Shown here in pieces: positions 7,318-11,277 of a stretch of 11,330 nt of DNA (position 1 is its first letter; each line of letters begins with the position of its first letter). The position numbers were made by a program, and so were the translations under genes. The notes under the pieces are model-generated. The model searched no databases, was not told where the DNA came from, and saw nothing but the letters and a program-made list of their open reading frames with translations. Source of the DNA: a virus (lineage: Duplodnaviria > Heunggongvirae > Uroviricota > Caudoviricetes); IMG/VR virus record IMGVR_UViG_2548876932_000004; one strand, written 5' to 3'.

Positions 7318-7715
7318 ACCGACATACACAAATCCGCCAGGCCGTACTGGCACGCCTTCGGGAACAGTGTGGAGACAGCGCCACGTTTTTTGACGGGCTT
7401 CCGGCATTTATTGATGCGCAGGAACTGCCTGCCGTGGCGGTGTGGCTGAGTGATGCTCAGTACACCGGAAAAATGACGGATGAAGATGACTGGCAGGCTG
7501 TTCTGCATATTGCCGTCTTCATCCGGGCACAGGCACCGGATTCAGAGCTGGATATGTGGATGGAGAGCACCATTTTCCCTGCCCTGAATGATGTACCGGC
7601 ACTTTCCGGACTCATCGACATCCTGATCCCACTCGGTTTTAACTATCAACGTGATAATGAGATGGCCACCTGGGCGATGGCGGAAATCACGTACCAGATC
7701 ACGTACACGAATTAA
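7314..7715 (+). CDS. U: Tail terminator protein, lambda gpU homolog
   Basis: Clear similarity to lambda gpU as I recall it: ATFFDG.PA..D....PAVAV.L....YTG...D.D.WQA.LHI.VF..AQ.PDSELD.WMES.I.P...D.PALS.LI; the C-terminal ITYQITY matches gpU LTYVITY. The ATG at 7314 overlaps the Z-like stop (ATGA); the alternative ATG at 7302 would add 4 aa. Confidence 0.9.
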   Translation: MNRHTQIRQAVLARLREQCGDSATFFDGLPAFIDAQELPAVAVWLSDAQYTGKMTDEDDWQAVLHIAVFIRAQAPDSELDMWMESTIFPALNDVPALSGLIDILIPLGFNYQRDNEMATWAMAEITYQITYTN

Positions 7716-7725
7716 GGAGGTGGTA

Positions 7726-8469
7726 ATGACCACACCAAATCCACTGGCAAAGACGAAAGGTGCGGGGACGACGTTCTGGATGTATACCGGCAACGGCGAT
7801 GCGTTTGCGAACCCTTTGTCGGACACTGACTGGCTGCGTCTTGCGATGGTGAAGGATCTGCAACCTGGCGAAATGACCGCTGATGCAGAAGATGACACTT
7901 ATCTCGATGATGAAGATGCAGACTGGAAAACGACAACCCAGGGGCAGAAATCCGTCGGTGATACTTCGGCGACGCTGGCCTGGCGTCCGGGTGACAGCGG
8001 GCAGAAAAAACTGGTTCAGTTGTTCGACTCCGGTGAAGTCTGCGCGTTTCGTATCAAATATCCCAACGGTACTGTTGATGTTTTCCGTGGCTGGCTGAGT
8101 TCACTGGGTAAAACCATTGCCTCAAAAGACGTGATGACCCGCACAGTGAAAATCAGCGGTGTGGGGCGTCCGTATCTGGCAGAAGAAGGCACTGAAACCG
8201 TGGGCGTTACCGGGCTGACGGTGGCACCGGCATCTGCCAGTGTAAAAGTGGGAGCAACCACCACGCTGACCTTTACAGTAAAACCTGACGGAGCCAGTGA
8301 CAAAGCGATCAGTGTGCATTCGACAGATCCACAGACTGCCACGGTGACCCTGAACGGGCTTGTGGCCACGGTGAAAGGCGTGAAGCAGGGCAGTGTCAGC
8401 ATTGTGGGCATGACTTCTGACGGCGATTTTGTGGCAGTGGCTACGGTGGCTGTCAGCGCCGCAGGTTAA
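7726..8469 (+). CDS. V: Major tail (tube) protein, lambda gpV homolog with C-terminal Ig-like (Big_2-type) domain
   Basis: 247 aa. Strong similarity to lambda gpV throughout (KGAGTT.W.Y.G.GD..ANPLSD.DW.RLA.VKDL.PGE.TA...DD.YLDDEDADW..T.QGQKS.GDTS.TLAW.PG..., PNGTVDVFRGW.SS.GK). The C-terminal ~90 aa (GLTVAPASASVKVG.TTTLTFTV.PDGASDK...) has bacterial Ig-like character. AAGGAGG RBS at 7714..7720. The track ORF start at 7651 is an upstream in-frame extension overlapping U and is rejected. Confidence 0.95.
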   Translation: MTTPNPLAKTKGAGTTFWMYTGNGDAFANPLSDTDWLRLAMVKDLQPGEMTADAEDDTYLDDEDADWKTTTQGQKSVGDTSATLAWRPGDSGQKKLVQLFDSGEVCAFRIKYPNGTVDVFRGWLSSLGKTIASKDVMTRTVKISGVGRPYLAEEGTETVGVTGLTVAPASASVKVGATTTLTFTVKPDGASDKAISVHSTDPQTATVTLNGLVATVKGVKQGSVSIVGMTSDGDFVAVATVAVSAAG

Positions 8470-8489
8470 CAGGACGATACTCATCATTT

Positions 8490-8513
8490 GCCCCGATTAT
8501 CCGGGGCTTTTTT
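8490..8513 (+). terminator. Putative rho-independent terminator between V and G
   Basis: GCCCCG (8490..8495), loop ATTATC, CGGGGC (8502..8507), followed by TTTTTT (8508..8513), 21 nt after the V stop codon. Confidence 0.6.
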
Positions 8514-8526
8514 GCAGGTGGAGAAC

Positions 8527-8916
8527 ATGATGTTTCTGAAACAGGGCACGTTTAATTATGAAAAGCAGTCCGTGGTGCTCAGTGAGCTGTCCGGGCTGCA
8601 GAGAATTGAATATCTGGCGTTTGTTCAGCAGCGAACGGCAAAGTTTGATGCCGAAGAGGGAGAACTGCCGGAGGCTGAACGACAGATTGCTTTTCTGCGG
8701 ATGGGGATGGATATCAATGCCTGGCTGGTTTCCCGCTCACTGTGGAATGCGGATCAGTCTAAGGATGTAGAGACGCTTTGCGCATCCGTTATTACAACAT
8801 GGTCGTATGATGCCCTGGGTGCGGGGGCGGAGATGGTTCTGTCGCTGAGCGGTATGGGGACCATTGATAATGCCGGGGATGATGAGCATGAGGCGCTGAC
8901 GCCGGAAAAGTCCTGA
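8527..8916 (+). CDS. G: Tail assembly chaperone, lambda gpG homolog
   Basis: About 129 aa. (M)MFLKQGTFNYEKQSVVLSELSGLQRIEYLAF... aligns with lambda gpG MFLKTESFEHNGVTVTLSELSALQRIEHLAL... Start is ATG 8527 or 8530, with GGAG at 8520..8523. The track start at 8488 is a TTG inside the terminator. Confidence 0.9.
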   Translation: MMFLKQGTFNYEKQSVVLSELSGLQRIEYLAFVQQRTAKFDAEEGELPEAERQIAFLRMGMDINAWLVSRSLWNADQSKDVETLCASVITTWSYDALGAGAEMVLSLSGMGTIDNAGDDEHEALTPEKS

Positions 8917-9254
8917 CGCGGGAAATGCAGTTTGTCATGCGGCTTGCCCGGGAGTTCCGACGGGCAGACTGGCGGCGGATGCTGTCGGAAATGTCGGCCA
9001 CTGAGCTTGGTGAGTGGGGCGATTATTTCCGGATGCAGAGCTTCAGTGATGTGTGGATGGATGCGCAGTTTGCCTCGCTGAAGGCATTGATCGTGAGAAT
9101 GGTGTCCGGTAGCAGTGATGCTGCGGTGGCTGATTTCAGCCTTTTACCGGAAGAGAACGGGATACCGGAGCGAACGGACGAAGAACTGATGCATCTTGGG
9201 GAAGGTATTTCCGGAGGTGTGCGTTATGGACCAGATAGCCAACCTGGTCATTGA
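8527..9254 (+). CDS. T: Tail assembly chaperone G-T fusion product (gpGT-like), made by -1 frameshift near 8904..8910
   Basis: The downstream ORF (frame 0, open 8892..9254) has no RBS or start of its own positioned for independent translation and lies in the -1 frame relative to G. This is the conserved arrangement in lambda-like tail gene clusters, immediately upstream of the tape measure gene. Product about 242 aa. Confidence 0.7.
8904..8910 (+). promoter_or_regulatory. Candidate -1 programmed ribosomal frameshift slippery site (G GAA AAG) for G-T fusion
   Basis: The T frame is -1 relative to G and is open only from 8892. G stops at 8914..8916. The only A-rich slippery candidate in this 25 nt overlap is GGAAAAG at 8904..8910. 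Confidence 0.6.
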
Positions 9255-11277
9255 TTTGGGGATTGATGCGGCAGAGTTTAAAAATGAAATTCCCCGTATC
9301 AAAAACCTTCTGAATGGTGCAGCCAGCGATGCAGAACGGTCTTCTGCCCGTATGCAGCGTTTTATGGAGCGTCAGACTCAGGCCGCCCGGCAGACAATGC
9401 AGGCGGCTTCTTCGGCTGCAACTGCCGCATCCGTCCATGCGCAGACGGTGGAGAAGAGCGCACAGGCTCATGAACGCATGGCCCGCGAGGTGGAGCAAAC
9501 CCGCCAGCGTATGGAGGCACTGAGCCAGAAAATGCGCGAGGAACAGGCGCAGGCCATGGCTCTGGCGGAGGCTCAGGATAAAGCGGCTGCCGCGTTTTAT
9601 CGTCAGATTGACAGTGTGAAACAGGCCAGTGCGGGGCTGCAGGAATTACAGCGTATTCAGCAGCAGATCCGACAGGCTAGAAACAGTGGCGGGATTGGTC
9701 AGCAGGATTATCTGGCGCTGATTTCTGAGGTTACGGCGAAAACCCGTGTTCTTACGCAGGCTGAGGCAGAGGCTACCCGACAGAAAGTGGCGTTTATCCG
9801 TCAGCTTAAAGAGCAGGCAACCCGCCAGAATCTTTCTTCTTCTGAGTTGCTTCGTGCTAAGGCTGCCCAGCTGGGGGTAAGCAGTGCTGCAGAAGTGTAT
9901 ATCCGCAAAATGGAGCAGGCAGGAAAAGCCACGCATTCGCTGGGTCTGAAAAGTGCAGCGGCCCGCCAGGAGATAGGCGTTCTGATAGGTGAACTGGTTC
10001 GCGGCAATTTAGGTGCGCTGAGGGGATCCGGGATAACGCTGGCTAACCGTGCCGGATGGATAGACACACTGATGTCACCGAAAGGCATGATGCTGGGCGG
10101 GGTTATTGGCGGTATTGCCGCGGCCGTCTATGGTCTGGGTAAAGCCTGGTATGATGGTCAGAAGGAGGGGGAAGAATTTAACCGCCAGTTGTCGCTGACG
10201 GGGCATTATGCCGGAGTCACTGCCGGGCAGCTGTGGACGCTCAGTCGTGCTATTTCCGGGAATGGTATCACGCAACATGCTGCAGCCGGTGCGCTGGCTC
10301 AGGTGGTGGGGAGTGGCGCATTTCGTGGAAACGATATCGGTATGGTGGCGAGAGCTGCCGCACAGATGGAGCGATCGGTTGGCCAGTCGGTCAGCGATAC
10401 CATAAGTCAGTTTAAGCGGCTGAAGGATGATCCTGTAAATGCCGCGAAGGCTCTGGACAATGAGCTGCATTTTCTTACTGCCACTCAGCTTGAGCAGATA
10501 CGTGTCCTTGGGGATCAGGGACGGTCCAGTGATGCTGCACGGATAGCCATGTCTGCACTGGCAGAGGAAACCGGTCGGCGTACTGCGGATATTGATAATA
10601 ACCTCAATGCGCTTGGCAGTACGCTGAAGTATCTGTCTGATTTGTGGAGTCGTTTCTGGGATGCGGCCATGAATATTGGTCGTGAAGACTCGCTGGATGA
10701 ACAGATTGCCGCTTTACAGGAGAAAGTGTCGCGGGCGAAAAGACTCCCCTGGACGGCATCATCTTCTCAGGTTGAATACGATCAGCAGCGTCTTAACGAT
10801 CTTCAGGAGAAAAAACGCCAGAAGGATTTGCAGGATGCAAAAGAGCAGGCAGAGCGGAATTATCAGGAGCAACAGAAACGACGTAATGCTGAAAATGCTG
10901 CACTGAACCGGATGAATGAATCGGAAGCAGCACGACATCAGCGTGAAATTGCGCGTATTAATTCCATGCAGTACGCCGATCAGGCTGTCAGGGATGCAGC
11001 GATACAACGTGAAAATGAACGTTACGAGAAAGCCCTGGCATCCGGTAAGAAAAAAACACGCGAAACCCGTAATGATGAGGCCACCCGGTTATTGCTGCAG
11101 TACAGTCAGCAACAGGCACAGGTGGAAGGACAGATTGCTGCTGCAAGACAGTCAGCAGGCATTGCCACTGAAAAGATGACAGAAGCGCATAAACAGCTTC
11201 TGGCTCTGCAGCAGCGCATCAGCGATCTGGACGGGAAAAAACTGACGACAGATGAAAAGAGTGTGCTGGCCCGTTGA
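9226..11277 (+). pseudogene. H: Tail tape measure protein, lambda gpH homolog, 3'-truncated by an insertion at 11275
   Basis: N-terminus MDQIANLVIDLGIDAAEFK resembles lambda gpH MAEPVGDLVVDLSLDAARF. The central region (...LSLTGHYAGVTAGQLWTLSRA...WSRFWDAAMNIGREDSLDEQI...) aligns with the gpH region (...LVLSGNQAGLTADRMLVLSRA...FKSMWDAVLDIGRPDTAQEM...). GGAGG RBS 8 nt before ATG 9226. The frame stops at TGA 11275..11277 after 683 aa, where the lambda homolog would continue about 350 aa further. The stop codon coincides with the first bases of an IS-like terminus. Confidence 0.85.

What the first reader, a model, noticed from the sequence alone, without database searches (positions are those of the whole stretch)
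8892..8916. G-T frameshift confined to a 25 nt window with a semi-canonical slippery heptamer GGAAAAG
The -1 frame needed for T opens at 8892 and G terminates at 8916, so the shift must occur in between. The only plausible site is G GAA AAG (8904..8910), two codons before the G stop. The A-site half (A AAG to AAA) is the classical E. coli slippery motif, but the P-site half (GAA to GGA) would need a G-U type mismatch, unlike lambda's GGGAAAG.
Basis: partly seen in the sequence, partly recalled or inferred. Interest (0 to 1): 0.5.

Follow-up and report, generated by a model that had tools for sequence, protein, structure and literature searches.

The report
Lambda-type G/GT tail-chaperone frameshift site
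This is the well-known programmed -1 ribosomal frameshift that makes the gpGT tail-assembly chaperone of lambda-like phages; its heptamer GGAAAAG is already annotated as the slip site in phages N15, phi80 and LLS and is the commonest variant in the family, so the finding is real but ordinary.

Summary
The gpG homologue (8527-8916) ends at TGA 8914-8916. The -1 frame encoding a gpT homologue opens at 8892, after TGA 8889-8891, and runs to 9254. G GAA AAG (8904-8910) is the only in-register site in the 25-nt overlap where a tRNA can re-pair cognately (A AAG).

GGAAAAG is annotated as the -1 slippery sequence in N15, phi80 and LLS, at the position homologous to lambda's GGGAAAG. It accounts for 48 of 62 non-redundant G/T junctions from Enterobacterales genomes and occurs across the whole T tree.

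Heptamer positions 1, 2 and 4-7 are nearly invariant, including three synonymous positions, while flanking synonymous positions vary freely. Codon periodicity switches from the G frame to the T frame exactly at the heptamer. All 80 close relatives in IMG/VR keep the site without an indel, and 1,833 of 5,426 complete E. coli genomes carry this junction.

I found no conserved downstream RNA structure. A weak SD-like GAGG lies 10 nt upstream, and its role is inconclusive.

Database records for this lineage annotate T as a stand-alone gene starting at ATG 8925, which is probably wrong.

Efficiency and the exact slippage mode remain untested. Verdict: already known, low interest.

The parts
8527..8916 (+). 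Gene G (tail assembly chaperone gpG homologue), zero frame. ATG at 8527 or 8530, stop TGA at 8914-8916.
   Evidence: Translation. PF06894 E=2.8e-39 and TIGR01674 E=6.1e-55. Annotated as minor tail protein or chaperone G in mEp460, cdtI and PGAP records.
8904..8910 (+). Slippery heptamer G GAA AAG, the proposed site of the -1 shift. tRNA-Glu would move from GAA to GGA and tRNA-Lys from AAG to AAA.
   Evidence: In register with G. The same heptamer is annotated as the -1 slip site at the homologous position in N15, phi80 and LLS. Found in 48 of 62 non-redundant family junctions. Positions 1, 2 and 4-7 carry 1.7-2.0 bits, against 0.08-0.61 bits at flanking synonymous positions.
8892..8916 (+). 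The 25-nt G/T overlap within which the shift must occur. The -1 frame opens after TGA 8889-8891 and G stops at 8914-8916.
8910..9254 (+). T-frame (-1) extension read after the shift: VLTREMQF...GPDSQPGH, 114 codons plus stop. The GT product is join(8527..8910, 8910..9254), 242 aa.
   Evidence: PF06223 E=1.9e-14 and TIGR01715 E=2.3e-39 on the fusion. T-frame codon periodicity begins right at the heptamer.
8925..8927 (+). ATG used as the start of a stand-alone T gene in database records. Probably not a real start.
   Evidence: Annotated as the start in mEp460, cdtI and PGAP. It corresponds to a Leu to Met change in the conserved E-L of relatives, which have CTG there. GGGAA directly abuts the ATG with no spacer.
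8890..8893 (+). SD-like GAGG 10 nt upstream of the heptamer. A candidate weak stimulator, unproven.
   Evidence: Anti-SD duplex scan: -5.6 kcal/mol for this lineage's upstream sequence. The family mean dips at 6-10 nt spacing. Strong only in Pantoea and Sodalis; N15 and phi80 have none near this spacing (their best matches lie 23-31 nt upstream). It overlaps a conserved Glu codon.
8490..8515 (+). Terminator-like hairpin plus T-run between V and G (context: sets G/T/H transcript level relative to V).
   Evidence: Annotated as a rho-independent terminator in mEp460, with an equivalent in N15.

Best explanation
The site is the programmed -1 ribosomal frameshift of a lambda-like (mEp460/cdtI-type) E. 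coli phage. It yields two tail assembly chaperones from one start. Most ribosomes read G to TGA 8914-8916 and make gpG (about 129 aa). A small fraction slip back one nucleotide on G GAA AAG (8904-8910) and continue in the T frame to 9254, making the 242-aa gpGT fusion. The most likely mode is tandem slippage during translocation. The A-site tRNA-Lys (mnm5s2UUU) moves from AAG to AAA. The P-site tRNA-Glu (mnm5s2UUC) moves from GAA to GGA, keeping pairs at positions 1 and 3 and a G.U at position 2. No RNA structure is needed, and efficiency is expected to be low (at or below lambda's roughly 4%), which suits a chaperone pair needed at a high G:GT ratio. Shown here: the frames, the homology, the homologous position, and conservation at the nucleotide level. 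Inferred: that slippage actually occurs, its mode, and its efficiency.
For: The gene order V-G-T-H and the family assignments of G and T are established. The heptamer lies at the position homologous to lambda GGGAAAG and is identical to the annotated slip sites of N15, phi80 and LLS. Relatives at 68-70% nucleotide identity (Gifsy-1, Gifsy-2, Fels-1) keep CCGGAAAAG(T/C)CCTGA while the upstream sequence diverges. Across 62 non-redundant junctions, position 1 is G in 60 of 62 although it is a third codon position and the codon varies (CCG, GCG, CTG, GTG, TTG, ACG). Position 2 is G in 62 of 62, positions 4-6 are A in 62 of 62, and position 7 is G in 59 of 62. Flanking third positions carry about 0.08 bits. 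Low-information positions switch from G-frame to T-frame third positions at the heptamer. All 80 close relatives are intact, and the junction is present in 1,833 of 5,426 E. coli genomes. The conserved T-frame residues V/A-L-x-x-E lie upstream of any candidate start. Literature: lambda shifts about 4% of the time, and the G:GT ratio matters and depends on s2U34 of tRNA Lys/Glu/Gln (PMC3296357; PMC5009743). The idea of G:U re-pairing of tRNA-Glu on GGA has been raised for annotated phage frameshifts (PMC10885494).
Against: There is no direct evidence for a fusion protein from this heptamer. In a reconstituted E. coli system, G GAA AAG served as the 'unfavourable' control and gave mainly zero-frame product with wild-type EF-G (PMC6924986). 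A_AAG alone is barely shifty without a stimulator: about 0.15% against 0.11% background (PMC4066793). No stimulatory structure was found: z = -0.03 for 8911-9000, and the alifold consensus is -1.4 kcal/mol with no covariation. Position 3 of the heptamer can be any base in relatives, so strict P-site re-pairing is not required. Morganella has A at position 1.
Confidence: 0.88

Rival explanations
1. Same site and product but a different mode. Only tRNA-Lys slips (A AAG to AAA A), as a single P-site tRNA while the next zero-frame codon (UCC here; CCC or a stop in relatives) is slowly decoded. tRNA-Glu re-pairing plays no part.
For: A AAG (or A AAA plus a stop) is the only universally conserved cognate re-pairing element. 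Heptamer position 3 varies through A, G, U and C. Morganella has A GAA AAG TAA. Thirteen of 62 junctions have a stop codon directly after the heptamer, the classic context for P-site slippage. tRNA-Lys is highly shifty (PMC4066793).
Against: Positions 1 and 2 (GG) are nearly invariant although they fall at a synonymous position and across four different amino acids (60/62 and 62/62). A Lys-only slip does not predict this. All four P-site codons observed are GNA, whose tRNAs would keep a G:C36 pair on GGN (inference). A_AAG alone without a stimulator is near background.
Confidence: 0.25
2. T is an independent gene translated from ATG 8925, as annotated in mEp460, cdtI and PGAP records, and no frameshift occurs.
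For: An ATG exists at 8925 in the T frame, and several records annotate a 109-aa T protein from it.
Against: The ATG replaces the conserved Leu (CTG) of relatives and is absent from Gifsy-1, Gifsy-2, Fels-1, N15, phi80 and lambda. There is no spaced SD, because GGGAA abuts the ATG. T-frame conservation and periodicity start at the heptamer, five codons upstream of the ATG. The heptamer's synonymous positions are conserved.
Confidence: 0.04
3. The frame break is a sequencing error or an inactivating indel in a decaying prophage.
For: None specific. It is the generic alternative for any frame break.
Against: The arrangement is identical in 80 of 80 IMG/VR relatives, 17 isolated phages and 1,833 E. 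coli genomes. The same two-frame layout is seen in every diverged relative, including viable phages (lambda, N15, phi80, mEp460, LLS).
Confidence: 0.01
4. RNA polymerase slippage on the A4 run adds or deletes an A in a fraction of transcripts, producing GT without ribosomal slippage.
For: The site contains a short A run.
Against: Four A's is far below the runs of more than 7 A's or more than 8 T's cited for transcriptional realignment (PMC3711429). The conservation of G at positions 1, 2 and 7 is not predicted by this model.
Confidence: 0.02

Closest known systems
Phage N15 genes 14/15, phi80 G-T and phage LLS genes 11/12 (-1 frameshift at GGAAAAG)
   Same: The heptamer is identical, at the homologous codon positions of homologous G and T genes. 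It is explicitly annotated as the -1 slippery sequence (NC_001901 10027-10033, FN582354 10194-10200, PQ299149 9222-9228). The junction peptide pattern is also the same...T-x-E-K | A/V-L-x-x-E-L/M-x-F.
   Different: T is only about 41-43% identical. In those phages the G stop lies 5 codons after the heptamer, whereas here it is 1 codon after (TCC TGA). Here the -1 frame opens only 12 nt upstream. Records for this lineage lack the frameshift annotation.
Phage lambda G/GT frameshift (G GGA AAG)
   Same: The genes, gene order (V-G-T-H) and position of the shift are the same, and neither needs an RNA structure. The A-site half, A AAG, read by tRNA-Lys mnm5s2UUU, is the same (PMC5009743; PMC3296357).
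   Different: Heptamer position 3 is G in lambda (Gly GGA, with cognate re-pairing to GGG) and A here (Glu GAA, re-pairing to GGA through a second-position G.U). T is 38% identical. Lambda's form is the derived minority state in the family.
Salmonella prophages Gifsy-1, Gifsy-2 and Fels-1 G/T
   Same: These are the closest diverged relatives (68-70% nucleotide identity). They share the same CCGGAAAAG(T/C)CCTGA, the same stop one codon after the heptamer, and Gifsy records that describe T as made by translational frameshifting.
   Different: Different host. The upstream acidic tail of G is diverged, and there is no ATG at the position of 8925.
E. coli dnaX -1 frameshift (A AAA AAG with upstream SD and downstream hairpin)
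   Same: The A-site codon AAG is read by the same shifty tRNA-Lys. A possible SD-like element lies about 10 nt upstream (GAGG 8890-8893).
   Different: There is no downstream hairpin. The SD-like element is weak and not conserved. The P-site codon is not cognate after the shift. The expected efficiency is a few percent or less, against 50-80% for dnaX (PMC6787027).

Membership tests
Lambda-type gpG/gpGT tail assembly chaperone -1 PRF | Two overlapping ORFs located between the major tail protein gene and the tape measure gene | tested here: met
   V 7651-8469, G 8527-8916, T frame 8892-9254, H from 9226.
Lambda-type gpG/gpGT tail assembly chaperone -1 PRF | Upstream ORF is a gpG homologue | tested here: met
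   PF06894 134 bits (cut-off 27); TIGR01674 equivalog 185 bits (cut-off 74).
Lambda-type gpG/gpGT tail assembly chaperone -1 PRF | Downstream ORF in the -1 frame is a gpT homologue without a conserved start of its own | tested here: met
   PF06223 54 bits; TIGR01715 134 bits. ATG 8925 is lineage-specific and lacks a spaced SD.
Lambda-type gpG/gpGT tail assembly chaperone -1 PRF | Canonical X XXY YYZ slippery heptamer in register within the overlap | tested here: not met
   G GAA AAG is in register, but position 3 differs from positions 1-2, so the P-site codon re-pairs with a second-position G.U. The family as documented nevertheless includes this heptamer: see the annotated N15, phi80 and LLS sites.
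Lambda-type gpG/gpGT tail assembly chaperone -1 PRF | Slip site at the position homologous to documented sites, conserved at synonymous positions | tested here: met
   It aligns with lambda GGGAAAG and N15 GGAAAAG. Positions 1, 4 and 7 carry 1.7-2.0 bits, against about 0.08 bits at flanking third positions. Periodicity switches at the heptamer.
Lambda-type gpG/gpGT tail assembly chaperone -1 PRF | A GT fusion protein made at a few percent of G and required for tail assembly | not testable with these tools
   This needs protein expression, mass spectrometry and genetics. It is known for lambda (PMC5009743; PMC3296357).
dnaX / IS-type stimulated -1 PRF | Downstream stem-loop or pseudoknot 5-9 nt after the heptamer | tested here: not met
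   8911-9000 gives MFE z = -0.03. The consensus fold of 26 diverse relatives is -1.4 kcal/mol with no compensatory pairs.
dnaX / IS-type stimulated -1 PRF | Upstream SD-like stimulator about 10 nt before the heptamer | tested here: inconclusive
   GAGG at 8890-8893 has 10-nt spacing but is weak (-5.6 kcal/mol). Strong only in Pantoea and Sodalis; N15 and phi80 have none near this spacing (their best matches lie 23-31 nt upstream). It is confounded by a conserved Glu codon.

The most novel reading that the evidence does not exclude
The 'semi-canonical' G GNA AAG, not lambda's G GGA AAG, is the ancestral and dominant slip site of lambda-like G/T genes. It works by tandem slippage that needs only the first and third P-site positions to re-pair: G1 and G2 are invariant while position 3 is free. 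Because both GAA and AAG are read by mnm5s2U34 tRNAs, the G:GT ratio in these very common E. coli prophages would be doubly tuned by host tRNA thiolation. The heptamer would then function in vivo even though it is used as the non-slippery control in vitro, which would imply an unrecognised stimulator or a tolerated second-position G.U in the P site.
Probability: 0.3. Interest if true: 0.35.

Novelty: already known. Interest (0 to 1): 0.15.

Why it matters
It matters mainly for annotation. In this very common prophage lineage (about one third of complete E. coli genomes), T is annotated as a stand-alone gene rather than as the frameshift extension of G, so the real 242-aa GT chaperone is missing from protein sets. 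There is also a minor mechanistic point. A heptamer that biochemists use as the 'unfavourable' control is the one nature uses most often in this gene family, with GG at positions 1-2 under clear nucleotide-level selection. That makes these junctions a convenient natural series (G GNA AAG; stop at +0, +1 or +5 codons; with or without an SD-like element) for testing the rules of P-site re-pairing.

Tried and rejected
- **Downstream stimulatory RNA structure.** The single-sequence fold of 8911-9000 is no better than shuffles. Per-sequence folds of 26 relatives showed a recurrent hairpin about 34-69 nt downstream in N15-, phi80- and lambda-type sequences. The alignment fold gave no consensus helix and no covariation, and the hairpin lies too far away to act on a ribosome at the heptamer, so I rejected it as a conserved stimulator.
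- **Upstream SD-like stimulator.** A modest family-wide dip appears at 6-10 nt spacing, but it is confounded by a conserved Glu codon and absent from N15 and phi80. Left as inconclusive.
- **Stop-codon proximity as a conserved stimulator.** The stop lies 0, 1 or 5 codons after the heptamer in different lineages, so it is not a shared feature.
- **Rarity of the heptamer string.** There are 5 copies in the window, so the string alone is not evidence.
- **Literature.** Searches for explicit discussion or in vivo measurement of GGAAAAG in G/T genes found nothing in the held library. Xu et al. 2004 (Mol Cell) is not held. Prior knowledge of the heptamer therefore rests on GenBank feature annotations.
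- **Other slip sites in the overlap.** Enumerated and excluded.

Full report
**Observation**

The window is the late (head and tail) region of a lambda-like E. coli phage. It is 98-99.5% identical over 8400-9400 to phages cdtI, mEp460, Ayreon, Tritos and others. The ORF map gives terminase, portal, head genes, V (7651-8469), G, T and H.
- G (8527 or 8530 to 8916) translates to a 129-aa protein ending ...EALTPEKS*.
- The -1 frame has TGA at 8889-8891 and is then open from 8892 to 9254.
- GGAAAAG lies at 8904-8910 in X XXY YYZ register: G-frame codons CCG GAA AAG TCC TGA.
- Of the seven G-frame codons inside the overlap, only AAG keeps cognate pairing after a -1 move. GAA to GGA keeps the first position.

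The heptamer string itself is not rare: 5 copies in the window against 1.56 expected. The copy at 8904 is the only + strand copy in register with its ORF.

**What it is**

The conceptual fusion (G through Lys 8908-8910, then the T frame) matches the expected families on both halves:
- G half: PF06894 (lambda chaperone G, E=2.8e-39) and the NCBIfam equivalog TIGR01674.
- T half: PF06223 (tail protein T, E=1.9e-14) and the NCBIfam equivalog TIGR01715.

The position is homologous to lambda's slip site. Lambda reads GCG GGA AAG TGT..., N15 reads GCG GAA AAG CCC..., and this window reads CCG GAA AAG TCC TGA. The T-frame peptide that follows is conserved as V/A-L-x-x-E-L/M-x-F-x-x-x-L-A-R-E-F.

GGAAAAG is explicitly annotated as the slip site in three GenBank records:
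- N15: 'slippery sequence for -1 translational frameshift', NC_001901 10027-10033.
- phi80: FN582354 10194-10200.
- LLS: 'minus-one programmed translational frameshift site GGAAAAG', PQ299149 9222-9228 (checked).

The Gifsy-1 and Gifsy-2 records also describe T as made by translational frameshifting.

**Comparative evidence**

Salmonella prophages Gifsy-1, Fels-1 and Gifsy-2 are 68-70% identical at the nucleotide level. They keep CCGGAAAAG(T/C)CCTGA while the sequence just upstream is unalignable.

An unbiased sample of T homologues came from one genome per species (78 loci) plus phage records. It gave 62 non-redundant junctions:

| Heptamer | Count | Where |
|---|---|---|
| GGAAAAG | 48 | Escherichia, Salmonella, Citrobacter, Kosakonia, Kluyvera, Klebsiella, Enterobacter, Serratia, Sodalis, Proteus, Providencia and others |
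| GGGAAAG | 5 | lambda group, E. albertii, Edwardsiella |
| GGTAAAG | 4 | Pantoea |
| GGCAAAA + TAG | 2 | Kluyvera, Ewingella |
| AGAAAAG + TAA | 2 | Morganella |
| GGGAAAA + TAG | 1 | Providencia |

On a neighbour-joining tree of T, GGAAAAG is spread over the whole tree and GGGAAAG appears in separate clades. Lambda's canonical heptamer is therefore the derived minority.

Column statistics:

| Heptamer position | Composition | Note |
|---|---|---|
| 1 | G in 60/62 (1.79 bits) | A third codon position; the codon varies (CCG, GCG, CTG, GTG, TTG, ACG) |
| 2 | G in 62/62 | |
| 3 | A 50, G 6, T 4, C 2 | The only free position |
| 4-6 | A in 62/62 | |
| 7 | G in 59/62 | |

By contrast, G-frame third positions upstream carry 0.08-0.61 bits. 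Downstream of the heptamer, the low-information positions fall on T-frame third positions. This is the classic signature of a recoding site, and it places the frame switch at the heptamer.

Among close relatives, 80 of 80 IMG/VR contigs keep GGAAAAG with no indel. The junction occurs in 1,833 of 5,426 complete E. coli genomes.

**Mechanism**

The best-supported model is low-efficiency -1 slippage on the heptamer without an RNA structure, as in lambda.
- The A-site half is A AAG, read by tRNA-Lys mnm5s2UUU, the shiftiest E. coli tRNA (PMC4066793).
- The P-site tRNA-Glu would re-pair GAA to GGA with G:C, G.U and A:U. The same G:U argument has been made for annotated phage frameshift motifs by the PRFect authors, whose empirical 'twofour' motif would fit this heptamer (my reading of the motif name) (PMC10885494).
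- The near-invariance of GG at positions 1-2, across four different P-site codons (GAA, GGA, GUA, GCA), argues that the P-site tRNA takes part. The freedom at position 3 argues that the middle pair is dispensable. This is my inference.

I found no stimulator.
- The 90 nt after the heptamer fold no better than shuffles (z = -0.03).
- 26 diverse relatives share no helix: -1.4 kcal/mol with no compensatory pairs.
- A weak SD-like GAGG (8890-8893) sits 10 nt upstream, the spacing that works in dnaX. Such elements are strong only in Pantoea (GGGGAGGA, 9 nt) and Sodalis, absent near this spacing in N15 and phi80, and overlap a conserved Glu codon. I leave this as inconclusive.

Experimental literature cautions against assuming high efficiency.
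- G GAA AAG was the 'unfavourable' control in a reconstituted system and gave mainly zero-frame product (PMC6924986).
- A_AAG alone is near background without a stimulator.
- Second-position mismatches were not covered by the thermodynamic model of Bock et al. (PMC6787027).

[quoted passage not shown] Here both slip-site codons are read by s2U34 tRNAs, by established knowledge of E. coli tRNA-Glu and tRNA-Lys. That is a testable corollary.

**Rivals**

- **Lys-only P-site slippage.** This is a real alternative for the mode of slippage. It fits the relatives with a stop directly after the heptamer and Morganella's A GAA AAG TAA. It does not explain the conserved GG.
- **Independent initiation of T at ATG 8925.** This is how mEp460, cdtI and PGAP annotate it; Ayreon starts T even later. 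It is unlikely. The ATG is a lineage-specific Leu to Met change, it has no spaced SD, and T-frame conservation begins five codons upstream of it.
- **Sequencing error or pseudogene.** Excluded by the comparative data.
- **Transcriptional slippage on four A's.** Implausible, because documented cases need much longer runs.

**Comparison and novelty**

In function and by membership this is the lambda-type gpG/gpGT frameshift. In detail it is the N15/phi80-type heptamer. It differs in that the G stop lies one codon after the heptamer rather than five, as in Gifsy and Fels-1. The strict X XXY YYZ criterion is not met, but the documented family already includes this heptamer. Nothing here is new in kind.

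Two points go beyond the existing annotation. The frameshift is missing from records of this lineage. And the 'semi-canonical' heptamer is the family norm, with GG under nucleotide-level selection.

**Verdict**

The feature is already known and of low interest (0.15). What remains open is quantitative: the efficiency, the mode of slippage and any stimulators. Reporter assays, mass spectrometry and tRNA-modification mutants can settle these.

Noticed in passing
window 8925-9254 (and L001, L002, L003, L170): Records for this lineage (mEp460 and cdtI RefSeq, PGAP E. coli genomes) annotate T as a stand-alone 109-aa protein from ATG 8925. Ayreon starts it even later (about 8991). None annotates the G-T join, so the 242-aa GT product is missing from these protein sets.
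   Followed up: yes
window 8490-8515: A GC-rich hairpin (GCCCCG...CGGGGC) followed by TTTTTT lies between V and G. It is annotated as a rho-independent terminator in mEp460, and N15 has an equivalent. It may lower G/T/H transcription relative to the major tail protein.
   Followed up: partly
L064-L070, L072-L076, L084-L086, L088 (genome contigs): G/T junctions identical to lambda over the compared interval turn up on short contigs, several with low coverage in their names, in assemblies of unrelated taxa (Kitasatospora, Neobacillus, Oceanobacillus, Pseudomonas, Shewanella, Leeuwenhoekiella, Enterococcus, Paenibacillus, Pseudoxanthomonas and others). This is most likely lambda DNA contamination. 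E. coli-type prophage sequence also appears in MAGs labelled Bacillota (L013) and Geobacteraceae (L055).
   Followed up: no
L056, L058, L059, L061 (Pantoea): The slip site is G GTA AAG, with poor P-site re-pairing, and a strong SD-like GGGGAGGA/AGGGAGGA lies 9 nt upstream (about -10 kcal/mol with the anti-SD). This is a dnaX-like arrangement that could compensate for the weaker heptamer.
   Followed up: partly
L020, L022, L024, L025, L028, L031, L033, L034, L041, L062, L078: In Proteus, Providencia, Morganella, Kluyvera and Ewingella relatives, the G stop codon follows the heptamer directly (GAA AAG TAG/TAA, GCA AAA TAG, GGA AAA TAG). When the last codon is AAA rather than AAG, a stop always follows. 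This suggests a 'shifty stop' variant of the same site.
   Followed up: partly
L007, L009, L010, L021, L043, L049, L083, about +34 to +69 nt after the heptamer: Single-sequence folds repeatedly give a hairpin of about 35 nt within the codons for LAREFGRPDWRAML (z down to -2.9).
   Followed up: partly
window 9226-9254: The tape measure gene H starts at ATG 9226, in the same frame as G, and overlaps the last 29 nt of the T frame.
   Followed up: no
window 6355, 6463(-), 7093(-), 9922: There are four further copies of GGAAAAG in the window (5 in total against 1.56 expected by shuffling). The two on the + strand are out of register with their ORFs.
   Followed up: yes
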